DNA from: an uncultured Planctomycetales bacterium
GTDB taxonomy: Bacteria > Omnitrophota > Gorgyraeia > Zapsychrales > JAHFFX01
Direction: 5' to 3'
Assembly (NCBI GenBank): GCA_964372915.1
Contig: CAYJRN010000001.1
Span: 100,305 to 164,304, forward strand
Length of the DNA stretch: 64,000 nt
The position numbers and the translations under genes were made by a program. The notes under the pieces were generated by a model. It saw nothing but the letters and a program-made list of their open reading frames with translations. It was not told the DNA's origin and searched no databases. This document shows positions 408-52,326 of this stretch, in pieces (position 1 is the stretch's first letter; every line of letters begins with the position of its first letter).

Positions 408-528
408 GTCCCACGCTGCTTCCCACAGGGGACGGCTTCGCGCGCCTACTCGTCGCAGCTTTGGGATAAATTCGCACTTACACCCACTCGTTCAACGACG
501 GGGTGTGTGCTCATTTAGGGAGGTGCTT

Positions 529-1044
529 ATGGCGCTCAGAGACCGCAGAGATGCAAAAGAAAAAGATCTCAAAAGCATCGAGATCAGTGCCCAGATGCAG
601 GGAACGCTTTCCTTCAAAGACCCGGTGAATCTCAAAATCAACGGCAACTTTACCGGAACCCTTGACACCAAGGGCACGCTCACCATCGGCCATTCCGCCA
701 ATGTCGAGGCTCACATCACCGGCGAAAATATCATCATCGAAGGAAAAGTGAAAGGAGACATCGTTGCTAAAAGAATGCTGGTTCTTCTGCCTACCGCCGT
801 TTTGACCGGGAACATTTCTACCCCGAAACTCAATATCGTCGAAGGCGCCACTTTTCAGGGCCGATGCCAGATGATGGAAGATTTTCTTGATCTCGATGAA
901 TTAAGCAAATACCTCGAGATCGACCAGCCAACCATCGTGGAGCTCGTGAATTCCGGTAAAATTCCAGCCACTAAAAACGGTGACAGCTGGGTTTTTGAAC
1001 GTAATCGGATCGACAACTGGGCCGCCGCGGGGAGAATCAAATGA
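529..1044 (+). CDS. Bactofilin-domain protein fused to a C-terminal HTH_17 (excisionase/MerR-like) DNA-binding domain
   Basis: ATG at 529 sits behind GGGAGG, so the ORF-track 346 start is probably an N-extension overlapping mgtC. Repetitive beta-rich segments (NGNFTGTL, TKGTLTIG, ITGENIIIEGKVKGDIV) are typical of the bactofilin DUF583 fold. The C-terminus LSKYLEIDQPTIVELVNSGKIPATKNGDSWVFERNRIDNW matches the excisionase-family HTH pattern. Confidence 0.55.
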   Translation: MALRDRRDAKEKDLKSIEISAQMQGTLSFKDPVNLKINGNFTGTLDTKGTLTIGHSANVEAHITGENIIIEGKVKGDIVAKRMLVLLPTAVLTGNISTPKLNIVEGATFQGRCQMMEDFLDLDELSKYLEIDQPTIVELVNSGKIPATKNGDSWVFERNRIDNWAAAGRIK

Positions 1045-1346
1045 CCTCCGACCAATTCATCAGCGTCCGCGAAACCGCTCAACTCTTGAGGATTTCGGAA
1101 AAAAAAGTCATGGACATGGTCACGGAAGGAAAGCTCAGGGCCTACCGTATCGCGGACCAATTCTTACGCCTTAAAAAAACCGAAGTCATCAGCATGCACA
1201 AAGCCGGAGAGGTTAAGGCCGAAAACTTTCAATTCTCCTATTCCGCCGGTGAAAAAATCAAAGATTTTTTCTATTTCAACGATTTTTACCTATTCTCGAT
1301 CCTCATCATCGCGGGACTTTTGTATCTTATTCTTCATCTCAGTTGA
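1041..1346 (+). CDS. HTH_17 (excisionase-family) DNA-binding protein with C-terminal transmembrane helix
   Basis: The N-terminus SVRETAQLLRISEKKVMDMVTEGKLRAYRIADQFLRLKKTEV is an HTH_17-like motif. The C-terminal FYLFSILIIAGLLYLIL is a predicted TM segment. Its ATG overlaps the upstream stop (ATGA). Confidence 0.5.
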   Translation: MTSDQFISVRETAQLLRISEKKVMDMVTEGKLRAYRIADQFLRLKKTEVISMHKAGEVKAENFQFSYSAGEKIKDFFYFNDFYLFSILIIAGLLYLILHLS

Positions 1347-1705
1347 TTTTTATGAAGACATTCCATTGTATCCTCATTATATTTTTTCTGACCCTAGGCT
1401 TGAGTCTGGGGGGTTGCGCCAGCGACACGAAGGCGCGGAAAGCGGTCGATGTCATCAAAGAGAAACAAAAGAATTACGATGAGCTCATCAAGGCTTTAGC
1501 TGAGGGGGCCCTCCGTAAAGGGACTCCCGCCGTCACCATTAAGACACTCTACGGGAATCCTGATGACACTTTTGCTTCCGGCTCAATGACCGGCAGTACC
1601 GATATCTGGACTTACCATAAAATCCCTGATCCCAAAACCTCTGAGGAAGCGAAAGCCGTTCGACTTTATTTCAGCAACTCCAAATTAATCGATTGGACAT
1701 ATTGA
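1343..1705 (+). CDS. Putative lipoprotein (signal peptide with LGGC lipobox), function unknown
   Basis: The N-terminal hydrophobic leader ends in LSLGGCAS, a lipobox-like L-x-G-C. There is no recognisable catalytic motif. Confidence 0.45.
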   Translation: MIFMKTFHCILIIFFLTLGLSLGGCASDTKARKAVDVIKEKQKNYDELIKALAEGALRKGTPAVTIKTLYGNPDDTFASGSMTGSTDIWTYHKIPDPKTSEEAKAVRLYFSNSKLIDWTY

Positions 1706-1846
1706 TCCCATACAATAGAACGATGATGGCGGCGTCCCAGACTGCTCAAACAAGTGGGACGAGCCCATACAATAGAACGATGATGGCGGCGCCCCGCTAG
1801 TGAACGAAAGGGGGGCGAGCCCAATAGTAGAACGATAACGGCGGCG
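1706..1846 (+). repeat. About 56-bp tandem direct repeat (about 2.6 units), each unit ending in the first 7 nt of tRNA-Met; the last unit runs into the tRNA
   Basis: The units are (ga)gcccatacaatagaacgatgatggcggcg at 1706-1734 and 1761-1791, and gagcccaatagtagaacgataacggcggcg at 1817-1846. GGCGGCG is the 5' acceptor strand of the tRNA that starts at 1840. Confidence 0.8.
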
Positions 1847-1912
1847 TAGCTCAGCTGATAGAGCATTCGGTTCATACCCGACAGGTCAGTGGTTTAAATC
1901 CACTCGCCGCCA
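1840..1912 (+). tRNA. tRNA-Met (anticodon CAT), elongator-type (1:72 G-C pair)
   Basis: Cloverleaf: acceptor GGCGGCG/CGCCGCC, D-arm GCTC..GAGC, anticodon loop TTCATAC, T-arm AGTGG TTTAAAT CCACT. CCA is not encoded. I cannot distinguish Met from lysidine-Ile. Confidence 0.78.
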
Positions 1913-11011: not shown

Positions 11012-11250
11012 CTATTCGGTGTCCCCCCGCCGTTTGCTTGTTTGCACTTTTTGAACAAATAGGGACAAGCAAACAAGCGGCGGGGGGATCAAAAGGGAAT
11101 CCTGTCCGCCCCAAAATTGGGGCGGGTTCAATCAGGAACGGTCCCGCCGCTGTAACTGAATTCTTTTCCTGTTTAAAGCCATTACTCTTTTAAGAGTGAG
11201 AAGGCAAGGGAAGAGAGTTTCATTCAGAAGTCAGAAGACCTGCCGAGTAG
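11012..11250 (+). ncRNA. Cobalamin (AdoCbl) riboswitch upstream of metE
   Basis: AAAAGGGAATCCTG..., CGGTCCCGCCGCTGTAACTG (B12-box-like GCCGCTG), GAGAAGGCAAGGGAAG and the 3' AGTCAGAAGACCTGCC motif match the Cbl riboswitch consensus from memory. An intrinsic terminator follows. Confidence 0.7.
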
Positions 11251-11313
11251 CTAGAGCGCATTCCTACTGCGAAGACAGTATCAATCGTGCGTATATTCTG
11301 GGATTTAAACGGG

Positions 11314-11350
11314 CCCAGTCCGCCATAATTTTGGCGGACTGGGTTTTTTT
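11314..11350 (+). terminator. Rho-independent terminator / riboswitch expression platform (CCCAGTCCGCC-loop-GGCGGACTGGG + T7)
   Basis: A perfect 11-bp stem followed by TTTTTTT, 23 nt before the metE ATG. Confidence 0.8.
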
Positions 11351-11372
11351 GTTAAAAAAGGATATTGAAATT

Positions 11373-13535
11373 ATGCAAACCTACGCTTACGGATTTCCTC
11401 GGTTAGGAGAAAACCGCGAATACAAAAAGGCTATTGAAAATTTCTGGAACGCTAAAGCTACCGAAACACAAACCAAAAATGAACTCGATCGCTTACAGGA
11501 GGAATTACTGAAGATTTATTCCCGGAGCGTGGACCAATTTCCGGTAGGGGAAATGACGGCTTATGATCCTATGCTGGATACGGCCATTATGCTGGGAATT
11601 CACCGGCCCAAGAACCTCAACGATTATTACAGTCTGTGTCGTGAGGAAAAGGCGCTGGAGATGACCAAATGGTTTAATACCAATTACCATTATTTGGTAA
11701 CTGACTTTGGGAGCATCAAGAAACCCAAATTGCGCTTAAATTGGAACAAATCGATGGAATATCAAAAACGGTTTCAAAAAGGGATTCCCTATCTTATCGG
11801 GCCGTTCACGTTTTTTAAACTCAGTAAAGGGCTTAGCCGAAACCGTTTTTTTGACTTGCTGGATACCGCTGCGGATATTTATGCCAAAATCATCGAGGAT
11901 TTGCCGGAAGTTCACGTCGACGAACCCGCTTTTGTCTTAGACCTCAACCAAGAAGAGATCAAGGCCATCCGCAAGGCTTACAAGAAAATGGACCCCACCA
12001 GCCGTAAAATCAATCTATTCACTTATTACGAGAGCGTTGACTGGATTAAAGACCTGCTTTCCTTACCGGTAAAATCCCTCGGACTTGATTTTATTCATGG
12101 CGCCGAACAATTATCAATGATCAAGAAGTACGGCTTCCCTAATGATAAAACGCTCATCGCCGGAATCGTGGACGGCCGCAGCATCTGGAAAACGAATTTA
12201 ACAAAAGTCATTACATTATTGCATGAACTTTCCCGACACACCTCATCCTTGATGATCAGCAACGCCGCCCCGCTTTACCATCTTCCCATCACACTTAAAG
12301 GTGAAAAGCTACCGACGGAACTTTTACAACGATTGAGTTTTGCGCGGGAACGCCTTGGAGAATTACAAACCATCGCCGAACTTTGGAAAAACGGCAAAAC
12401 ACCCGAAGCCTCTGTGTCTCTATCGCTGGGGGTCAACATGACCGTCCGCAAGAAAGTCGAATCACTTCAAACAAAAGACTTCATAAAAAAAGTTCCTTAT
12501 TCTAAACGGACCTCTTTACAAAATGGGTTACTGCGGCTTCCGCCGTTTCCGACGACCACCATCGGAAGTTTTCCGCAAACTTTCGAAATCCGCAAACTGC
12601 GCAGCGATTACCGCGGTGGTCAAATCAGCAAAGAGGTTTATGACGCGCACATCAAATCCAAGATCGCCGAACTCATCCGATTTCAGGAAGAATTGGGTCT
12701 CGATGTCCTGGTACACGGAGAATTCGAACGTACCGACATGGTGGAGTTCTTCGCCGAAAAACTGGAGGGGATTGCGACGACGCAGAAAGGGTGGATCATT
12801 TCCTATGGAACAAGGGCCTATCGACCGCCTATCATCTTTGGTGATGTTTCGCGTCCCCAGCCAATGACCATTGATGAGATTACTTATGCTCAGAGCCTGA
12901 CCAGTAAACCGGTGAAAGGCATGTTGACCGGCCCCGTGACCATCATTGCCTGGAGCTTTGTACGCGAAGACATTCCCGTCTCGCAAGTCGCCTATCAGAT
13001 TGGTCTGGCCCTCAAGGAAGAAATCCTGGACTATGAGAAAAAGGGGATTAAGATTGTCCAGATCGATGAGCCCGCTCTGAGAGAAAAAACTCCGATCAAA
13101 AGAAAAAAATGGAAAGAATATTTTGATTGGGCCATCAAGGCTTTCCGTTTGACGACCAACACGGACCCGACGACTCAAATCCACGCACACATGTGCTATT
13201 CGGAATTCGGCGATATCATCCGGGAAATTCGTCAGATGGATTTCGACGTTATTTCTATCGAAACTTCTCGTAGCCACGGCGATATCATCAAAGGGTTCGA
13301 AAAAATGAAATTTGACCGTCAGATCGGACTCGGGGTCTGGGATATCCACTCACCGGTTGTACCCAAAAAAAAGGAGATGGTCTCGATCGTGAGACGTGCT
13401 CTCAAAGTCATTCCCAAAGAGAATTTCTGGATCAATCCTGACTGTGGTCTTAAAACACGTAATTGGGAAGAAACCACAGCCTCGCTTAAAAACCTCGTGG
13501 CCTTAAGCCAAACCTTAAGAAAAAGGAGAAAGTAA
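11373..13535 (+). CDS. metE: Cobalamin-independent methionine synthase (5-methyltetrahydropteroyltriglutamate--homocysteine methyltransferase)
   Basis: ~720 aa with two MetE (beta/alpha)8 halves. The C-terminal IQIDEPAL...HMCYSEF zinc-site motifs are present. The ORF-track start at 11196 would run through the riboswitch and terminator. Confidence 0.9.
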   Translation: MQTYAYGFPRLGENREYKKAIENFWNAKATETQTKNELDRLQEELLKIYSRSVDQFPVGEMTAYDPMLDTAIMLGIHRPKNLNDYYSLCREEKALEMTKWFNTNYHYLVTDFGSIKKPKLRLNWNKSMEYQKRFQKGIPYLIGPFTFFKLSKGLSRNRFFDLLDTAADIYAKIIEDLPEVHVDEPAFVLDLNQEEIKAIRKAYKKMDPTSRKINLFTYYESVDWIKDLLSLPVKSLGLDFIHGAEQLSMIKKYGFPNDKTLIAGIVDGRSIWKTNLTKVITLLHELSRHTSSLMISNAAPLYHLPITLKGEKLPTELLQRLSFARERLGELQTIAELWKNGKTPEASVSLSLGVNMTVRKKVESLQTKDFIKKVPYSKRTSLQNGLLRLPPFPTTTIGSFPQTFEIRKLRSDYRGGQISKEVYDAHIKSKIAELIRFQEELGLDVLVHGEFERTDMVEFFAEKLEGIATTQKGWIISYGTRAYRPPIIFGDVSRPQPMTIDEITYAQSLTSKPVKGMLTGPVTIIAWSFVREDIPVSQVAYQIGLALKEEILDYEKKGIKIVQIDEPALREKTPIKRKKWKEYFDWAIKAFRLTTNTDPTTQIHAHMCYSEFGDIIREIRQMDFDVISIETSRSHGDIIKGFEKMKFDRQIGLGVWDIHSPVVPKKKEMVSIVRRALKVIPKENFWINPDCGLKTRNWEETTASLKNLVALSQTLRKRRK

Positions 13536-15607: not shown

Positions 15608-16813
15608 CTATAAATGCCGCTCGACGGGCCCGTTGATCTTCTCAAAATGGAAGGACGTCTTGACCGGCGGGCGTCCGAAGCAAACGCCCAAAGTTTCGTA
15701 GAGTGACACGAGGTTCAAATCGACATAGCGTTGTTTGATGGCATCGGCCGTATTCATATAACGGATGGTATTACCGTTGACACCGGCGACGGTCACCCCG
15801 GTGATATTTTGAAGCAGCAATTGAACGGCCGCCGCGCCCGCTTCCTTGCCGAAGTTGACGTCGTAAGGGGAAGAGCGGCCGCAACGCACCAGATGCCCGG
15901 GCATGACCGCGCGAATCTCGGGAATCTCATTCATGCCCTTGACAAACATCATCGATCTCTTCATCATCTCGGCCGTAGAGGGGTCAGTTTTAAAACGTTT
16001 TGTTAATTCCTGGACCACATATTTCGCAGCGCCGGCGAGACGTTTATGTCCGAAAGAATCAACTCCAGCCGATTCATCCACGATCTCGCGCCCCGAGGCG
16101 TCTTTAAACCCTTCCGCCACGACAATCATGTAGGTGGCCCCGCGGATGTCGCTATTCATAATCTTTTCCCAATATCTGGCCTTGGCGTGGGCGTACAAAG
16201 CGTCAAAGTCGACCGGGACCTCCGGAATGAGCACGGCGTCGGCATCCGCCGCAATGCCTCCCCGAAAAGCGGTGTGCCCGGCATAACGACCGAACACCTC
16301 CATCGCAACGATCCGGCGATGCGTCACAGCGGTTGTTTTTAAATCTTCGATGAAATTTGCGATCCGCGCGATCGCGGAGTCGCCCCCGACCGAATACGTT
16401 TGCAGGTCCAAGTCCATGGTTTTGGGGGCATGAACGCACTTAAACCCTTGTTGACTCAAATCCACCATGACACTTGCGGAATCATCGCCACCGCTAATGA
16501 CTAACCCGTCAATCTTAAATTTTTCTATACCCTTTTTGATCCGTTGATATTTTTTTTCATCTTCGATTTTCTTGACCTTAACCCGGGAATGACCCGCCTC
16601 AGAGCCAGCCAGATTGGCATCAATTTGGTCGATCCTGTGGGCTGTCAACTCGACCAGTTGATCCATATCCACAAGATTGTAAAGCCCGGCATAGCCATGC
16701 GGAATCATAAAACAGGAAAGACCCTGCGAACGCGCCATGAGGGCGGCACCCTTGATGACACCGTTTAAGCCTCCACAATCTCCGCCGCTGGTAAGGATTC
16801 CGATACGCTTCAT
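15608..16813 (-). CDS. pfp: Pyrophosphate-dependent 6-phosphofructokinase
   Basis: PFK fold, GILTSGGDCGGLN. GGDDS (Asp replacing the ATP-PFK Gly) and PKTMD (Lys) are the residues that distinguish PPi- from ATP-dependent enzymes. Confidence 0.8.
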   Translation of the reverse strand: MKRIGILTSGGDCGGLNGVIKGAALMARSQGLSCFMIPHGYAGLYNLVDMDQLVELTAHRIDQIDANLAGSEAGHSRVKVKKIEDEKKYQRIKKGIEKFKIDGLVISGGDDSASVMVDLSQQGFKCVHAPKTMDLDLQTYSVGGDSAIARIANFIEDLKTTAVTHRRIVAMEVFGRYAGHTAFRGGIAADADAVLIPEVPVDFDALYAHAKARYWEKIMNSDIRGATYMIVVAEGFKDASGREIVDESAGVDSFGHKRLAGAAKYVVQELTKRFKTDPSTAEMMKRSMMFVKGMNEIPEIRAVMPGHLVRCGRSSPYDVNFGKEAGAAAVQLLLQNITGVTVAGVNGNTIRYMNTADAIKQRYVDLNLVSLYETLGVCFGRPPVKTSFHFEKINGPVERHL

Positions 16814-16825
16814 GGCAATACTCCT

Positions 16826-16960
16826 TTGATATATTAAATTATTAACCTTTTCTTCCTTAAAGCCGTAAATTTTTTTCCAGTCTCAAGGAGAGAAAAGGTA
16901 ATATTGACTTCCATATACGGCGCTAATAGCGGAAAGGTCAATAGTGAGAATATCGTATCA
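16826..16960. repeat. Dispersed leader repeat, family R2, copy A (immediately 5' of the pfp RBS)
   Basis: ttattaaccttttcttccttaaa...gagagaaaaggtaatattgacttccatatacggcgctaatagcggaaaggtcaata. Near-identical copies lie at 43528-43650, 50095-50170 (partial) and 52328-52510. Confidence 0.7.
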
Positions 16961-42435: not shown

Positions 42436-43512
42436 TTAAGTGGTGGTGGAAGTTTTTTGCTGCAAATTGAGCATAGCGACTGCGGTCAATTTGGAAAGAT
42501 GCGAAAGAATTTCGAGGCTTTCCTGATCCGATATGATATCTTCCGTTTTTTTGGTGTGAAGATTCATGATGCCGAAAACATTGTTTTGGGAAAAAAGCGG
42601 CATCACAAGAGCCCTTTTAATATCCGGGCGTTTTAGAAGATGCTTGATCTTATCATCCCCGTCTGTCCCGCTAATGACAAAAAGTTTTTTCTGCTTAAAG
42701 GCAACCCCCGCCACCCCCTCCCCGAATTTCAACCTGGTGTTTCGAGCCCGCGACTTATCAATGCCCCTGGAAACCTTAATGACGAGGTCTCCTTTCTCAT
42801 TGTCTAACACCATAATCGATCCGCATTCGGCCTTGGTCATACTCAGGGCCACATCCAAAAGGGTCACCAAAAGTTCATCAAAATAAATAGAAGAATAAAT
42901 GTCCTGAGCTGTCTCATTAGCCTCCTGAGACAAGACCTCCTTATTAAGGCACATTTTTTCCAACCCCTGCCTTTGCAGGTTAAGTTCAATGCCATATTTC
43001 ACTATCTCTGATAAAAGATCCAAGATCGACTTCAAGGTAATGCTGGATAAGGCTCTCACCTCATTGAGGGTGTCTAATATTTCGGTAACCGGCAGATTCA
43101 GAGTTTTAGCTATTTTTTGATATTCTTGCTGATCCAAACGTTCATTCAGGATGATGGGGCCTAGAATGAAATAAGCAAAGACACTTTCCTCCGTGTCTTT
43201 GGCTGTGATAGGAATGGCAAAGCTATGCAGATTAAAAGTGAACTGATGCTCAAGGTAAGACCCGTATTTTCGAAACTTAGAAATGAGAATTTCCGGTTCA
43301 TTGAATAGATTAGCGGTCACGGCCGGCTTATTGAAAAATTCGCTGCCATAGCGTCCCTTAACCGGAGGCAGAAGGATACGGCCCTCAAAGTCGACAATAA
43401 AAATGTTGATTTTGAGAACCTCAATGAAATGGGTCAAAATTCCAGACCATTTTTCGCGGTTCCCCATGTTCAAAATGTTCAAAACCAACTTTTTAAGTTC
43501 TTCTGGCTTCAT
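42436..43512 (-). CDS. Sensor protein with C-terminal GAF domain and N-terminal PocR-like region; no output domain
   Basis: The C-terminal ~150 aa (LLDVALSMTKAECGSIMVLDNEKGDLVIKVSRG...GEGVAGVAFKQKKLFVISG) looks like a GAF domain. The N-terminus is uncharacterised, and a PocR-like assignment is tentative. Confidence 0.55.
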   Translation of the reverse strand: MKPEELKKLVLNILNMGNREKWSGILTHFIEVLKINIFIVDFEGRILLPPVKGRYGSEFFNKPAVTANLFNEPEILISKFRKYGSYLEHQFTFNLHSFAIPITAKDTEESVFAYFILGPIILNERLDQQEYQKIAKTLNLPVTEILDTLNEVRALSSITLKSILDLLSEIVKYGIELNLQRQGLEKMCLNKEVLSQEANETAQDIYSSIYFDELLVTLLDVALSMTKAECGSIMVLDNEKGDLVIKVSRGIDKSRARNTRLKFGEGVAGVAFKQKKLFVISGTDGDDKIKHLLKRPDIKRALVMPLFSQNNVFGIMNLHTKKTEDIISDQESLEILSHLSKLTAVAMLNLQQKTSTTT

Positions 43513-49397: not shown

Positions 49398-50081
49398 TTA
49401 CGCCTGCTCTGCTTTAGCAGGGATGGGTTCATGTGTACAACCGCGATGAGCGCAAAAAAGAGGAAAGGCGATGCCGCTGGCACAGCAAGGGACCATGACG
49501 GCAAAAACTACAATGATAAGAACTATTCCTAGGGAATGGATCCAATCCTGGACCCCAAAGGCCGTGAGATAAAGAATCGCCGAGAGACTGCTAAAAAGCA
49601 CATGGCCTGAATGCGAATACTCCGTGGATTTTTCAATGGCGCCCGGAATAAGAAAGCCCGTAATGACGCCCATCATCGCGAAAGGAACAACGATCCCGGG
49701 ATGTTCAATAAGGCAGATATGAACGGCCATATCCCCGTGGAGCAAAAAACGTCCGCCCAGATAAGGGAAGACGGCATCGCTCAAACCGCACACCACCAAC
49801 GACCCGCAGAATCCGACGAAAACGGCCTTTAAGAACCTCTTCTCATGTTTCCAGAACATGGCGGTCGTTGTCACCGCACTCAATAAAATATGACTCGCGT
49901 GAGAGACATGAAAGAATTCGCGAGCGGCATCTGCCAGAGAATCTTCCGCCCGCATCAGTATAGCGAAAAAGGTAAAAATCCCCATGAGCATGAGTCCCAT
50001 GGTAACCCCAAAGATGGTATAGGGAAGATGATGCCCCAGTTCCAGCAGAATATAGTTGAGTTTACTGTCCTTGCTGTTCAT
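49398..50081 (-). CDS. His-rich polytopic membrane protein, first gene of the heme-branch operon; function unknown
   Basis: Six hydrophobic helices with conserved-looking His/Cys (GHHLPYT, HVSHASH, HGDMAVHICLIEHPG). No confident family call. Confidence 0.35.
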   Translation of the reverse strand: MNSKDSKLNYILLELGHHLPYTIFGVTMGLMLMGIFTFFAILMRAEDSLADAAREFFHVSHASHILLSAVTTTAMFWKHEKRFLKAVFVGFCGSLVVCGLSDAVFPYLGGRFLLHGDMAVHICLIEHPGIVVPFAMMGVITGFLIPGAIEKSTEYSHSGHVLFSSLSAILYLTAFGVQDWIHSLGIVLIIVVFAVMVPCCASGIAFPLFCAHRGCTHEPIPAKAEQA

Positions 50082-50241: not shown

Positions 50242-52326
50242 TTATTCCGCGATGAGTTTTTTAATTTCCGGCAGGGCTTTATAAGCGGCTTCTTCTCCGG
50301 CTCTTAAGAGCTTGTTGACTTGATAAAGCTCAAACCAATTAATGCCGGAAAGATCGGGATGGATGATGATGTCGGCCTGAAGGGCGCTTTGCTGGGCGAT
50401 GACATATTCAGTAGCCTGGAGCGTACGCACGATAATATCAGGGATGTTCGGCCAGAACACCCTGTAAAAAAATCTATTGATCCGAAAGCTCAGGTATTGT
50501 CGCGGCGATTTCAAAAATGGGATTTTCTCTTCTTCCTGGGCTTTTGCCCTGGCGAGCTCGTAGCCCTTCGCCACATCCACGGGCGACTGCAAGACATTGA
50601 CGGCAATGATCTTCTTGATGCCTAAAGCGGTCAGGACATTGGTCGGCAAAGGATTTAAAACGCCCCCATCGATGATGAGCCGATTTTTCTGCAAGACCGG
50701 TTTAATAACGCCCGGAATGGAAACACTTTTACGAACGGCATCAACCAGCTGTCCCTCTGAAATCACCAGCTCCTCCCGGTGCAAAAGGTCATAGGCTATG
50801 ACTTTTAAAGGAAAACGCGTGGAATGGAAGGTTTTATTCCCTAAATGTTTCTTAAGCCAACGCTCAATGCCCCGGCCTGACACAAAACCGGCTTTTGAAA
50901 TGACCAGATCAACGATCTTCCCCATTGCCTTTTTGCTTTCGAATTCTCGGGCTATTGTTTCCAGCTCATCGGCATTATTGCCAACGGCCCAAAGACTGGC
51001 GAGCAGAGCGCCCATACTGCTGCCAACGACGACATCGATAGGAATTTTTTCCTTTTCAAGAACGCGAATGACCCCAATATGGGCCACCCCCAAAGCCGCG
51101 CCGCCGCCTAAAACCAATCCCACGAGGACCCCTCCCACCCGACGGGCCAGTTGGGTCAGGGTCTTTGCGTATTCGCTCTGGGGGCTCGGCGTCAAAACCG
51201 TCATCAGATTTGAAACAACCGGTTGATTCAATTCGCCCGGGCTGATAAAAGGCAGCACGGCTGTGACTTGATAGTCGAGGACTTTGTTGACTTCTTCAAA
51301 GGAAAGATAACACTGGAGCTTAAGGCCACTGGTCAGCACCTGCACTTTTTCTTTATCGAAGTTTCCCTTTAGGACTCCTTTAAGCCTTTTGATGACATGC
51401 CCCGCCAGAAGTAAATCCTCTTTCTGATCGATGGTAATCAAATAAACATAGTCCGACTGCGTCAAGGTCTCCAGAACGACATCGTCCATATCATTGGGAA
51501 GGTCCACGACGACATAATGGTACTCATTGGCGAGGCTGCTGATAAATGTGCTGATCTGCCGAACTATTCTTTCATTTTGCGGGTTGATGAAGACGTTCAA
51601 GAGATCGACTTCGATATCGGCCTTGGTAATAGCCTGAGCGATTTTTTGATAATCCCCCACGATATCTTCGAGGTTAACGGCCGCCTTTTTCCATCGAGGA
51701 GTCGCGTCCGTCTTTTGAGAATTTTCTGTAGAAAACACATGCGGGCCGTTAGAGATGCTGACAAAAATAATTTTCCGAGTGGTTTCTTTCGCCAAAGCCA
51801 GAGCCAGGTTGACGGCGAACGTGGAGCTCCCCGAGCCTTTCACCGGACTGTACACGGAAATGACGGTGCTTTCGAAAATGGATTTGGAACGAACCACCTG
51901 ACTGCGGACCCGGCGGGAAAGACTACGGCTGAATTCAATGCCAAGATGGGGAATACTTTTGAGGATATTGAGAAAATCATCCTTGTTGATTTTAAGGATC
52001 ACGGAATCGTTGAGGGCCTCAAAGGTCAAAGAATGCTCTTCCCCGGTCAAAAGCGAGATGATCCCGAAATGCATTCCGCGCAAGAGAAGCTCAACGTTTT
52101 CTTTGCTACCGTTGGGGCGGGTCTTGTAAGCCTGCAGACGTCCCGAGACCAGGCAATACAGAGCATCCGGGGGCGCCCCCTCCCGGGAGATGATCTCGCC
52201 TTTTTTATATTCCGCAAAACTGCATTTGGCGGCAACCGCGTGCAACTCAAACCAATTCAATTTGCTGAAAATGGGTATTTGCTTGACGACGGAATATTTA
52301 TGAGTGATTTGTAAAAAAGAGGACAT
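50242..52326 (-). CDS. Three-domain protein: cyclic-nucleotide-binding domain + degenerate ParA/CpaE-like domain + patatin-like phospholipase
   Basis: N-terminal cNMP motifs (FAEYKKGEIISREGAPPDALYCLVSGRL). Middle domain: VISVYSPVKGSGSSTFAVNLALAL with a non-canonical P-loop, plus YVVVDLPND. C-terminal patatin motifs: GLVLGGGAALG...GSSMGAL (GxSxG), with the catalytic Asp further on. Confidence 0.72.
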   Translation of the reverse strand: MSSFLQITHKYSVVKQIPIFSKLNWFELHAVAAKCSFAEYKKGEIISREGAPPDALYCLVSGRLQAYKTRPNGSKENVELLLRGMHFGIISLLTGEEHSLTFEALNDSVILKINKDDFLNILKSIPHLGIEFSRSLSRRVRSQVVRSKSIFESTVISVYSPVKGSGSSTFAVNLALALAKETTRKIIFVSISNGPHVFSTENSQKTDATPRWKKAAVNLEDIVGDYQKIAQAITKADIEVDLLNVFINPQNERIVRQISTFISSLANEYHYVVVDLPNDMDDVVLETLTQSDYVYLITIDQKEDLLLAGHVIKRLKGVLKGNFDKEKVQVLTSGLKLQCYLSFEEVNKVLDYQVTAVLPFISPGELNQPVVSNLMTVLTPSPQSEYAKTLTQLARRVGGVLVGLVLGGGAALGVAHIGVIRVLEKEKIPIDVVVGSSMGALLASLWAVGNNADELETIAREFESKKAMGKIVDLVISKAGFVSGRGIERWLKKHLGNKTFHSTRFPLKVIAYDLLHREELVISEGQLVDAVRKSVSIPGVIKPVLQKNRLIIDGGVLNPLPTNVLTALGIKKIIAVNVLQSPVDVAKGYELARAKAQEEEKIPFLKSPRQYLSFRINRFFYRVFWPNIPDIIVRTLQATEYVIAQQSALQADIIIHPDLSGINWFELYQVNKLLRAGEEAAYKALPEIKKLIAE

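What the first reader, a model, noticed from the sequence alone, without database searches (positions are those of the whole stretch)
529..1346. Bactofilin domain fused to an excisionase-type HTH, followed by a second HTH_17 protein with a membrane anchor
Bactofilins are cytoskeletal scaffolds and are not normally DNA-binding. Here the beta-helical bactofilin core (about residues 20-130) is followed by a clear HTH_17/MerR-like motif. The next gene, overlapping by ATGA, encodes another HTH_17 domain plus a TM helix. A polymer-forming, DNA-binding, membrane-tethered pair could act as a DNA-anchoring or segregation module. I do not recall a characterised bactofilin-HTH fusion.
Basis: partly seen in the sequence, partly recalled or inferred. 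Interest (0 to 1): 0.6.

Follow-up and report, generated by a model that had tools for sequence, protein, structure and literature searches.

The report
Bactofilin fused to HTH, with membrane-anchored partner
A filament-forming scaffold protein (bactofilin) carrying a DNA-binding-type domain, always followed by a small membrane-anchored protein of the same DNA-binding type, is a conserved and so far unstudied gene pair in Omnitrophota bacteria; it may tie DNA to a membrane-bound polymer.

Summary
Gene A (529-1044, 171 aa) scores well above the Pfam cut-offs for Bactofilin (86.9 bits) and HTH_17 (39.9 bits). Its AlphaFold model is a beta-helix followed by a winged helix-turn-helix. Gene B (1041-1346, 101 aa, ATGA overlap) is an HTH_17 domain, a linker and a C-terminal transmembrane helix.

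The pair is not a one-off. About 1000 protein clusters and 170 GTDB species genomes carry the fusion. Every record whose title names a phylum is Omnitrophota, and 79 of the 80 loci kept have gene B directly downstream. The flanking genes are housekeeping and no integrase was seen, so an excisionase role is rejected. I found no paper describing such a fusion.

The DNA-anchor reading remains an inference. B's HTH keeps a conserved basic surface and resembles Xis, BldC and RacA. A's HTH is acidic (net -2 to -6) and has no basic residues on its recognition helix, so it may dock a protein instead of DNA.

Best model (about 0.4): a membrane-associated bactofilin polymer plus a tail-anchored HTH protein that holds or organises DNA at the membrane. 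Rivals are a BacR-like regulatory switch and a DNA-free adaptor pair.

Rating: new variant of a known kind, moderate interest.

The parts
518..523 (+). Shine-Dalgarno sequence GGGAGG of gene A
   Evidence: Read directly from the sequence. GGAGG lies 9-15 nt upstream of the start in most of the 84 orthologous loci.
529..1044 (+). Gene A: bactofilin-HTH_17 fusion protein, 171 aa
   Evidence: ORF and sequence. Pfam and NCBIfam hits. 976 homologues, and the best 120 listed all carry both domains. AlphaFold2 model with mean pLDDT 79.7.
529..549 (+). N-terminal tail motif M-A-[L/F]-[R/N]-x-[R/K]-[R/K], resembling the bactofilin membrane-targeting sequence
   Evidence: 78 of 82 distinct orthologues start with M, one small residue (sometimes none), then a hydrophobic residue. 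Positions 4-8 hold a mean of 2.5 basic residues. The published global consensus is MFSKKKK (PMC12448750). Membrane binding is inferred and was not tested.
577..870 (+). Bactofilin beta-helix domain (residues 17-114)
   Evidence: PF04519 at 86.9 bits. The profile matches C. crescentus BacA 2n3d and Thermus bactofilin 6ria. Foldseek gives 6rib at TM 0.88 and rmsd 1.8. The invariant F109 aligns with BacA F130 and TtBac F105, the residues changed in the F130R and F105R variants; F130R is stated to be polymerisation-deficient.
883..1032 (+). HTH_17 (excisionase / MerR-like winged helix-turn-helix) domain of gene A (residues 119-168); acidic
   Evidence: PF12728 at 39.9 bits and TIGR01764 at 32.5 bits. 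The model has helices 122-129, 133-141 and 158-166 and a hairpin at 148-157. Structural neighbours are RdfS, BldC, CbpM, RacA and Xis. Net charge is -2 to -6.
1041..1044 (+). ATGA start/stop overlap of genes A and B
   Evidence: Read from the sequence. The same 4-nt overlap occurs in 28 of 84 orthologous pairs; in the rest the gap is at most 120 nt.
1041..1346 (+). Gene B: tail-anchored HTH_17 protein, 101 aa
   Evidence: Pfam and NCBIfam hits. 682 homologues, the 120 listed being about 100 aa long. Directly downstream of A in 79 of 80 GTDB loci. AlphaFold2 model.
1059..1190 (+). HTH_17 domain of gene B (residues 7-50) with a conserved basic surface
   Evidence: PF12728 at 31.7 bits. Matches Pukovnik Xis 4j2n at E = 0.001 by sequence and at TM 0.80 by fold; BldC gives TM 0.84-0.88 and RacA 0.62-0.64. 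R10 and R43 are invariant; K21, K22 and K45 are 85-95% conserved; position 36 is always R or K and position 46 nearly always.
1239..1289 (+). Conserved aromatic/acidic juxtamembrane motif Y-x3-E-[R/K]-x2-DFFYFNDFY (residues 67-83)
   Evidence: Conservation is 74-99% at Y67, E71, D75, F76, F77, Y78, F79, N80, D81, F82 and Y83. Residues 69-79 are modelled as a helix. Its role is unknown.
1284..1340 (+). C-terminal transmembrane helix of gene B (residues 82-100); only one residue follows it
   Evidence: Hydropathy 2.37. Helix 81-100 with pLDDT about 90. Hydrophobic in all aligned orthologues, and also in the partner of a 31%-identical fusion (L089).

Best explanation
Genes A and B form a conserved two-gene housekeeping module in Omnitrophota.

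Gene A most likely polymerises like other bactofilins into nucleotide-independent, non-polar filaments. It probably lies on the cytoplasmic face of the membrane, held by its short hydrophobic-then-basic N-terminal tail. [quoted passage not shown] In a filament built from head-to-head and tail-to-tail contacts, these domains would emerge in pairs at every tail-to-tail junction.

Gene B is made in step with A, by operon linkage and often by translational coupling. It is inserted in the membrane by a C-terminal tail anchor, and its basic wHTH faces the cytoplasm.

Together they would form a membrane-attached array of wHTH domains that holds or organises chromosomal DNA at the membrane. B would be the main DNA-contacting subunit. 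A would be the polymer that clusters the system. A's own acidic wHTH would contact either the DNA backbone through its wing or B's wHTH.

Shown here: the domain content, the folds, the conserved polymerisation residue, the membrane helix, the strict A-B linkage, the housekeeping context and the restriction to Omnitrophota.

Inferred only: polymerisation, membrane binding by A's N-terminus, DNA binding, A-B contact and the cellular role.
For: - Domains score above the curated cut-offs.
- The AlphaFold2 model of A is a beta-helix at 15-118 followed by a wHTH at 122-166. It superposes on Thermus bactofilin at TM 0.88.
- The invariant F109 aligns with BacA F130 and TtBac F105. BacA F130R is polymerisation-deficient (PMC12448750).
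- The N-terminal M-A-[L/F]-R-x-[R/K]-[R/K] motif is present in 78 of 82 orthologues. The published membrane-targeting consensus is MFSKKKK.
- B has a wHTH at 6-55, a linker and a transmembrane helix at 81-100. Its nearest folds are the DNA-binding wHTH proteins Xis, BldC and RacA.
- B keeps basic residues at the BldC contact or wing positions K26 (K21), R41 (R36), R48 (R43) and R50 (K45). These are 91-100% conserved.
- B has no periplasmic part. It therefore looks like an anchor and not a sensor.
- B lies directly downstream of A in 79 of 80 species-level loci. The one exception is a contig end. 28 of 84 pairs share the 4-nt overlap.
- The pairing survives at 31% identity of A (L089).
- The flanks are housekeeping genes and they vary between lineages. 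A strong Shine-Dalgarno sequence is conserved upstream of A.
- Precedents for bactofilins linked to DNA or HTH proteins are BacNOP-PadC-ParB (PMC5703909) and BacR-BacEF (PMC13649987).
Against: - A's wHTH is acidic in all 33 aligned orthologues, with a mean net charge of -4.
- At the BldC recognition-helix contact positions K26, R30 and K33, A has Pro, Glu and Asn.
- The exposed recognition-helix positions 133, 135, 137 and 141 of A are among the least conserved in a protein that is about 70% conserved overall.
- B has Asp at the position of BldC's base-reading Arg30.
- No par, smc or other nucleoid gene is linked to the pair.
- No candidate DNA target was identified.
- Paired co-variation gave no signal for an A-B contact.
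- Nothing here is experimental, and the A-B complex could not be modelled.
Confidence: 0.4

Rival explanations
1. Regulatory switch of the BacR type. One or both HTH domains act as a transcription factor, and the membrane-bound bactofilin polymer controls access to DNA. Assembly state or envelope status would decide whether the HTH is held at the membrane or free to act on promoters. The output is gene regulation and not DNA architecture.
For: - In B. subtilis the HTH protein BacR is encoded with the bactofilins BacE and BacF. It binds them, loses DNA binding in their presence, sits at the membrane, and moves to the nucleoid when bactofilins are depleted (PMC13649987).
- Here an HTH gene is likewise locked to a bactofilin gene.
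- BldC, a close structural neighbour of both HTH domains, is a transcription regulator.
Against: - B is an integral tail-anchored protein, so it cannot leave the membrane without proteolysis.
- A's HTH is covalently attached to the polymer.
- No conserved operator-like motif lies upstream of A across 84 loci. Only the Shine-Dalgarno sequence is shared, and in many loci the upstream gene abuts A.
- Neither protein hits DUF4004 at E <= 1.
- No sensor domain is present.
Confidence: 0.22
2. DNA-free adaptor pair. The two HTH_17 domains have been turned into protein-protein modules. A's acidic HTH docks on B's basic HTH, or on another client, so that B is the membrane receptor for the bactofilin. 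The module then serves cell shape, division or envelope functions, as other bactofilins do.
For: - The charges are complementary: A-HTH averages -4 and B-HTH +2.
- A's recognition helix has no basic residues.
- MerR-type wHTH folds can bind proteins. CbpM bound to the CbpA J-domain (3ucs) is among the structural neighbours of both domains, and A gives a weak MerR_2 hit.
- Known bactofilin clients are mostly membrane proteins, for example PbpC.
- Upstream neighbours in several lineages are envelope-related: an S41 peptidase, a polysaccharide deacetylase, and in L089 a SPOR protein.
Against: - B's conserved residues (R10, K21, K22, R/K36, R43, K45, K/R46) form the pattern expected of a DNA-binding wHTH. 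B's best structural matches are DNA-bound proteins.
- Paired co-variation shows no enrichment of HTH-HTH pairs: 1.38-fold, against 1.22-fold for bactofilin-HTH pairs, at an effective sequence number (Neff) of 56.
- A already has its own membrane-targeting-like N-terminus, so a separate receptor seems unnecessary.
Confidence: 0.22
3. Remnant of a mobile element. The HTH_17 domains are excisionases or recombination directionality factors of a prophage or integrative element next to tRNA-Met.
For: - Both proteins pass TIGR01764 'excisionase family'. JGI names several homologues that way.
- A tRNA-Met gene lies about 500 nt downstream, with short direct repeats in front of it.
Against: - The gene lists for eight of the fetched loci show no integrase, phage or conjugation gene next to the pair.
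- The pair sits in a conserved housekeeping neighbourhood: gatB-ctpA-tsaD-mgtC upstream and SNase-tilS-ftsH downstream.
- It is present at 60-80% identity in 170 species genomes.
- One of the HTH domains is fused to a cytoskeletal domain.
Confidence: 0.02

Closest known systems
Canonical bactofilins (C. crescentus BacA, PDB 2n3d; Thermus thermophilus bactofilin, PDB 6ria/6rib)
   Same: The same Pfam domain and beta-helix fold. The Phe at the polymerisation interface is conserved (F109 = BacA F130 = TtBac F105). A short N-terminal tail has hydrophobic then basic residues, like the membrane-targeting sequence.
   Different: Canonical bactofilins end in a short disordered tail. Gene A ends in a folded 50-residue wHTH domain and always has a tail-anchored wHTH partner gene. 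Close standalone relatives (about 50% identity) have Lys-rich tails in that place.
BacR (YhbD, DUF4004) with the bactofilins BacE/BacF of Bacillus subtilis (PMC13649987)
   Same: An HTH protein is genetically locked to bactofilin genes and is located at the membrane through them. The interplay between polymer and DNA binding is the central theme.
   Different: BacR is a soluble DUF4004 dimer, encoded upstream, that can move to the nucleoid. Here one HTH is fused to the bactofilin and the other is an integral membrane protein. Both are of the HTH_17 type, with no DUF4004 match. The phylum is also different.
BacNOP-PadC-ParB scaffold of Myxococcus xanthus (PMC5703909)
   Same: A bactofilin polymer positions chromosomal DNA in the cell.
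   Different: In Myxococcus the link to DNA is indirect, through the ParB-parS complex and the ParB-like adaptor PadC with ParA. Here the DNA-binding-type domain is part of the bactofilin, and no par genes are linked.
RacA-DivIVA chromosome anchor of B. subtilis (PDB 5i44)
   Same: A MerR-like wHTH without an effector domain, used architecturally to attach DNA to a membrane-associated scaffold. RacA is a structural neighbour of both HTH domains.
   Different: RacA reaches DivIVA through a coiled coil. Here the scaffold is a bactofilin, the attachment is covalent for A and through a transmembrane helix for B, and A's HTH is acidic.
BldC / Xis / RdfS family of small wHTH proteins (PDB 6ama, 4j2n, 8dgl)
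   Same: The same HTH_17-type fold. These proteins bind DNA as cooperative head-to-tail multimers without a dimerisation domain. An external polymer could mimic that behaviour.
   Different: Those are free 50-70 residue proteins acting in transcription or site-specific recombination. A and B sit in housekeeping context with no recombinase. Both lack the base-reading Arg30 of BldC.

Membership tests
Bactofilin (PF04519) | Profile score above the Pfam gathering threshold | tested here: met
   86.9 bits against a cut-off of 27.9, covering residues 17-114 and profile positions 3-98 of 98.
Bactofilin (PF04519) | Right-handed beta-helix fold as in solved bactofilins | tested here: met
   AlphaFold2 pLDDT is about 90 over residues 21-80. 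Foldseek gives 6rib at TM 0.88 and rmsd 1.8, and 2n3d at TM 0.72.
Bactofilin (PF04519) | Conserved hydrophobic residue at the terminal polymerisation interface (BacA F130 / TtBac F105) | tested here: met
   F109 aligns with both residues and is invariant in 33 orthologues.
Bactofilin (PF04519) | Nucleotide-independent polymerisation into filaments | not testable with these tools
   Needs purified protein with electron microscopy, or in vivo imaging.
Bactofilin (PF04519) | N-terminal membrane-targeting sequence (consensus MFSKKKK) | tested here: inconclusive
   The motif M-A-[L/F]-[R/N]-x-[R/K]-[R/K] occurs in 78 of 82 orthologues. It has a similar character but is not identical to the consensus. 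No membrane-binding test was possible.
HTH_17 / excisionase-family wHTH (PF12728, TIGR01764) | Profile score above the curated cut-offs | tested here: met
   A: 39.9 against 27, and 32.5 against 28.8. B: 31.7 against 27, and 30.8 against 28.8.
HTH_17 / excisionase-family wHTH (PF12728, TIGR01764) | Winged helix-turn-helix fold (helix 1, helix 2, beta-hairpin wing, helix 3) | tested here: met
   The secondary-structure order appears in both models. Foldseek neighbours are RdfS, BldC, Xis and RacA.
HTH_17 / excisionase-family wHTH (PF12728, TIGR01764) | DNA binding through the recognition helix and a basic wing | tested here: inconclusive
   B keeps conserved basic residues at several BldC contact positions. 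A has Pro, Glu and Asn at K26, R30 and K33 and carries a net negative charge. No binding assay was possible.
Excisionase / recombination directionality factor (functional class) | Encoded in a mobile element next to a cognate integrase | tested here: not met
   The listed neighbourhoods hold no integrase. The conserved context is housekeeping.
BacR / DUF4004 | Match to the DUF4004 profile | tested here: not met
   Neither A nor B lists a DUF4004 hit at E <= 1.
MamR (NF040990) and MADS1 (NF047737) | Score above the NCBIfam equivalog cut-off | tested here: not met
   MamR: 15.6 bits for A and 24.7 for B, against a cut-off of 100. MADS1: 43.7 bits for A and 22.7 for B, against a cut-off of 80. 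These hits reflect generic HTH_17 similarity only.
ParB / Noc type membrane-DNA tethers | ParB N-terminal CTPase domain and ParB-type HTH | tested here: not met
   Neither A nor B has a ParB-family hit in Pfam or NCBIfam. The resemblance is functional only.

The most novel reading that the evidence does not exclude
Omnitrophota possess a phylum-specific cytoskeletal system with two wHTH-bearing parts: a bactofilin polymer carrying its own wHTH, and a tail-anchored wHTH partner. Together these bind chromosomal DNA directly and attach the nucleoid to the membrane. That would be a covalent cytoskeleton-DNA link working independently of ParABS-type adaptors.
Probability: 0.3. Interest if true: 0.75.

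Novelty: new variant of a known kind. Interest (0 to 1): 0.55.

Why it matters
Bactofilins are known as scaffolds that recruit client proteins. Their documented links to DNA go through separate proteins: ParB and PadC in Myxococcus, and BacR in Bacillus.

A bactofilin with a built-in DNA-binding-type domain and an obligatory tail-anchored HTH partner, widespread among sequenced Omnitrophota, would be the simplest known candidate for a direct polymer-membrane-DNA connection. It would also give a first handle on nucleoid and cell organisation in a largely uncultured phylum of very small cells.

Both proteins are small (171 and 101 aa), so the idea can be tested by heterologous expression and in vitro assays. 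If A's acidic HTH turns out to be a protein-docking module, that would instead be a clear case of a wHTH fold re-used to recruit cytoskeletal clients.

Tried and rejected
1. **Paired co-variation.** I ran mutual information with APC correction on 82 distinct A-B pairs (Neff 56). The top inter-protein pairs are dominated by one B column (Q40). HTH-HTH pairs are enriched only 1.38-fold, against 1.22-fold for bactofilin-HTH pairs. This is uninformative.

2. **Conserved operator upstream of A.** Across 84 loci only the Shine-Dalgarno sequence is shared. The promoter and terminator scan of 300-2100 was at background level.

3. **Direct similarity of the two HTH domains.** BLASTP finds no alignment. 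A profile of A's HTH detects B only weakly. They are divergent members of one family, not recent duplicates.

4. **Genome scan with a diverse alignment (A4).** It failed because no conserved stretch was available. I repeated it with the closer alignment A1, so very divergent fusions in other phyla could have been missed.

5. **Foldseek against AFDB50.** This was meant to survey the architecture across UniProt, but the library was unavailable.

6. **Modelling of the A-B complex or of A oligomers.** This was not possible because the tool predicts single chains only.

7. **Repeated DNA motif in the window as a possible HTH target.** The only repeated element found (four copies, described under noticed in passing) has no demonstrable link to A or B.

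8. **MamR, MADS1 and Rv2175c readings.** These were rejected because the hits fall far below the cut-offs.

9. **Excisionase or mobile-element reading.** This was rejected on genomic context.

10. **Further bactofilin or HTH_17 genes in the window.** Profile searches of all six-frame ORFs found none.
Full report
**1. What is in the sequence**

The region holds two co-oriented genes.

Gene A runs from ATG 529 to TGA 1044 and encodes 171 aa. GGGAGG lies at 518-523. The longer TTG-initiated ORF from 346 is not used, because the homologues aligned here begin at the MAL... start.

Gene B runs from 1041 to 1346 and encodes 101 aa. Its ATG overlaps A's stop codon as ATGA.

Pfam gives these scores:
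- A: Bactofilin 86.9 bits (cut-off 27.9, residues 17-114) and HTH_17 39.9 bits (cut-off 27, residues 119-168).
- B: HTH_17 31.7 bits (residues 7-50).

Both proteins also pass TIGR01764 'excisionase family DNA-binding'.

B's last 19 residues are strongly hydrophobic, with a Kyte-Doolittle mean of 2.37.

The only adjustment is that the bactofilin core ends at about residue 114, not 130.

**2. Structure**

The AlphaFold2 model of A has a mean pLDDT of 79.7, rising to about 90 across the beta-helix. It shows beta-strands from 15 to 110. A helix, helix, beta-hairpin, helix unit follows directly at 122-166.

Foldseek against the PDB places the N-terminal part on Thermus bactofilin (6rib, TM 0.88, rmsd 1.8) and on C. 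crescentus BacA (2n3d). It places the C-terminal part on the RdfS excisionase, BldC, CbpM, RacA and phage Xis proteins.

A profile of 33 orthologues matches BacA and TtBac by sequence. In those alignments BacA F130 and TtBac F105 both fall on F109 of gene A. BacA F130R is described as polymerisation-deficient, and an F105R mutant of TtBac has a deposited structure (6ria). F109 is invariant.

The model of B has a mean pLDDT of 69.8. It shows a wHTH at 6-55, a poorly ordered linker, a short helix at 69-79 and a confident helix at 81-100. Its nearest folds are Pukovnik Xis (TM 0.80, 30% identity), BldC (TM 0.84-0.88) and the RacA DNA-binding domain. Pukovnik Xis is also found by sequence at E = 0.001.

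**3. Distribution and linkage**

A has 976 homologous protein clusters in the word-indexed search. The 120 best are all 168-190 aa long, carry both Pfam domains and are 68-100% identical.

An exhaustive HMMER scan of cluster representatives at 50% identity finds 20 clusters at E <= 1e-30. Further full-length fusions reach down to 27-31% identity.

Where records carry organism names, they say Candidatus Omnitrophota or Omnitrophica.

A scan of one genome per GTDB species found relatives in 170 genomes. Of the 80 best, about half are titled Omnitrophota, including Candidatus Aceula, an Omnitrophota genus. Most of the others carry a generic 'uncultured Planctomycetales' label on third-party assemblies, and two are titled only 'bacterium'.

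In 79 of these 80 loci a gene B homologue (48-74% identical) lies directly downstream on the same strand. The single exception is a contig that ends 2 nt after A.

Across 84 extracted pairs the spacing is the same 4-nt overlap in 28 cases and at most 120 nt otherwise. B is 97-102 aa long in all but one case.

The flanks are not constant. MgtC lies upstream in 42 of 80 loci. An SNase-family gene, tilS and ftsH lie downstream in 38, 36 and 23 of 80. In one lineage a response regulator replaces MgtC.

A 31%-identical fusion (P0273, locus L089) is again followed by a 97-aa HTH_17 protein with a C-terminal hydrophobic helix. There it sits next to a SPOR-domain gene.

The unit under selection is therefore the A-B pair itself.

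B's 682 homologues are likewise about 100 aa long among the 120 listed, and those with organism names are from Omnitrophota. The window holds no other bactofilin or HTH_17 gene.

**4. Not a mobile element**

The neighbours in the window are MgtC, a lipoprotein-like gene, tRNA-Met, DoxX, SNase, TilS, FtsH, FolP, CdaA and PdxJ. Related contigs add gatA/gatB, an S41 peptidase, a polysaccharide deacetylase and tsaD upstream. No listed neighbourhood contains an integrase or a phage gene. The 'excisionase' label reflects the fold family only.

**5. Do the HTH domains look like DNA binders?**

*Charge.* Across orthologues A's HTH domain has a net charge of -2 to -6 (mean -4). B's has 0 to +5 (mean +2).

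*BldC contact positions.* The BldC-DNA structures define the contact residues. On the recognition helix they are K26, T27, T29, R30, W31 and K33. On the wing they are H46, R47 and R48 (PMC5859096). Profile-to-sequence alignments then give the following:
- A has P134, A/T135, a variable residue at 137, E138, L139 and N141 at the helix positions.
- B has K21, K22, M24, D25, L26 and E28 at the helix positions, and R36, R43 and K45 at BldC R41, R48 and R50.

*Conservation.* The pattern points the same way:
- In B, R10, E11, E20 and R43 are invariant in the 81 sequences scored. K21, K22, D25 and K45 are 85-95% conserved. Position 36 is always R or K, and position 46 nearly always.
- In A, the exposed recognition-helix positions 133, 135, 137 and 141 are only 20-48% conserved. 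The core residues and the wing residues (K/R149, W154, F156, E157, R158) are fixed.

B therefore has the signature of a conserved nucleic-acid-binding surface, although it lacks the base-reading Arg of BldC and RacA. A's HTH might contact the DNA backbone through its wing, or it may have become a protein-docking module. The MerR-like protein CbpM, which binds the CbpA J-domain, is a structural neighbour of both domains.

**6. Membrane attachment**

B's transmembrane helix sits at the extreme C-terminus with one residue beyond it. B is thus a tail-anchored protein whose HTH faces the cytoplasm, and it has no periplasmic sensor part. A strongly conserved aromatic/acidic segment, Y-x3-E-[R/K]-x2-DFFYFNDFY, precedes the helix. 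Its role is unknown.

A's N-terminus reads M-A-[L/F]-[R/N]-x-[R/K]-[R/K] in 78 of 82 orthologues. This resembles the hydrophobic-then-basic membrane-targeting sequence of bactofilins, whose global consensus is MFSKKKK. That sequence binds membranes cooperatively with polymerisation (PMC12448750). Membrane binding by A is an inference.

**7. Mechanism proposed**

Bactofilin filaments are non-polar. From established structural work on TtBac, they are built from head-to-head and tail-to-tail contacts. A's HTH domains would therefore emerge in pairs at each tail-to-tail junction, and its N-terminal tails in pairs at each head-to-head junction.

The linker between the two domains is short in the main clade. 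It is longer and variable in divergent members, and two orthologues carry an 8-residue insertion. The HTH is thus a separately folded appendage. It occupies the place where relatives carry a disordered tail.

The closest standalone relatives, at about 50% identity in the bactofilin domain, start with MF-x-K or ML-K-K. They carry Lys-rich C-terminal tails, and one has a PilZ-like C-terminal domain. This bactofilin subfamily therefore appears to vary its C-terminal 'client' end.

I propose that A forms a membrane-associated polymer that presents wHTH domains and works with the co-expressed tail-anchored wHTH protein B. Together they would hold or organise DNA at the membrane, with B as the main DNA-contacting part. 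I give this a confidence of about 0.4.

The rivals are as follows:
- A BacR-like regulatory switch (0.22). Against it are B's permanent membrane anchor and the lack of any conserved upstream operator.
- A DNA-free adaptor pair in which A's acidic HTH docks on B's basic HTH (0.22). The charges support it, but B's DNA-binding-like surface does not. Co-variation analysis did not resolve the question.
- A mobile-element excisionase (0.02), refuted by genomic context.

**8. Comparison with what is known**

- *Bactofilins.* The tested membership features are met: profile score, fold and interface residue. Polymerisation was not testable.
- *HTH_17.* Both proteins are members by profile and fold. DNA binding is unresolved.
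- *Not members.* The proteins do not belong to DUF4004/BacR, MamR, MADS1 or ParB/Noc.
- *Functional parallels.* The nearest are BacR-BacEF in Bacillus, BacNOP-PadC-ParB in Myxococcus and RacA-DivIVA. In BacR-BacEF an HTH protein is encoded with bactofilins, is recruited by them to the membrane and has its DNA binding reduced by them. RacA is a structural neighbour of both HTH domains.
- *Differences.* Here one HTH is fused covalently to the polymer, the other is an integral membrane protein, and no adaptor or par genes are linked.
- *Literature.* Full-text searches for bactofilin with helix-turn-helix, Omnitrophota, excisionase, or domain architecture plus DNA-binding found no description of such a fusion. 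The two recent bactofilin survey papers I read do not mention one either.

**9. Verdict**

The module is a new variant of a known kind: a bactofilin with a built-in wHTH and an obligatory tail-anchored wHTH partner. It is widespread in Omnitrophota and was not seen outside that phylum with the searches that were possible. A second, small fusion lineage in the same phylum lies next to Volactin and ParA-like genes.

Interest is moderate, at 0.55. The architecture is unusual and easy to test, but its function rests on inference, and A's HTH does not look like a typical DNA reader.

Noticed in passing
window 1704-1850: Three direct copies of a roughly 35-nt unit (GAKCCCATACAATAGAACGATGATGGCGGCG...), spaced 57 and 55 nt apart. 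The third copy is 66% identical and overlaps the 5' end of tRNA-Met(CAT) at 1840-1913. The tRNA's leader and first bases therefore appear to be partly duplicated twice upstream. Tandem Repeats Finder reports nothing.
   Followed up: partly
window, minus strand; identical 23-nt cores at plus-strand positions 16840, 43535, 50098 and 52331: Four near-identical copies of a roughly 65-nt element lie 5-30 nt upstream of the start codons of four unrelated minus-strand genes. These are phosphofructokinase (15608-16813), a PocR+GAF sensor (42436-43512), an unknown 227-aa protein (49398-50081) and a cNMP-binding + AAA_31 + patatin protein (50242-52326). The outer arms form an inverted repeat (TATTACCTTTTCT / AGAAAAGGTTAATA). 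The RNA fold is not significant (z = -1.0) and no Rfam family matches. It could be a shared operator, promoter or leader.
   Followed up: partly
L088:1-5848 (JGI 3300009777, Ga0105164_10002154): A second, small Omnitrophota lineage of bactofilin-HTH_17 fusions (P0406, P0322, P0407) is 27% identical to gene A. It lies downstream of a Volactin-family (PF25216) actin-like gene, a ParA/CbiA-like ATPase with an AMPK1_CBM domain, and unknown genes. Its downstream gene is not an HTH protein. This may be a cytoskeletal gene cluster.
   Followed up: partly
proteins P0274, P0276, P0279, P0289 (loci L093, L094): Standalone bactofilins about 50% identical to A's bactofilin domain start with MF-x-K or ML-K-K. 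They have Lys-rich C-terminal tails where A has the HTH. P0289 (253 aa, 39% identical) instead carries a C-terminal region with PilZ-like motifs (RRQWPR ... NISTGG), read by eye only.
   Followed up: partly
window 1352-1705: The gene after B encodes a 117-aa protein with a lipoprotein-type signal sequence (LSLGGC). It has no significant family match and is detectable downstream of the pair in only 23 of 80 loci. It does not seem to belong to the core module.
   Followed up: partly
window 11061-11261: A cobalamin riboswitch (Rfam RF00174, 74.6 bits) lies upstream of the cobalamin-independent methionine synthase MetE (11196-13535). This is an ordinary arrangement.
   Followed up: no
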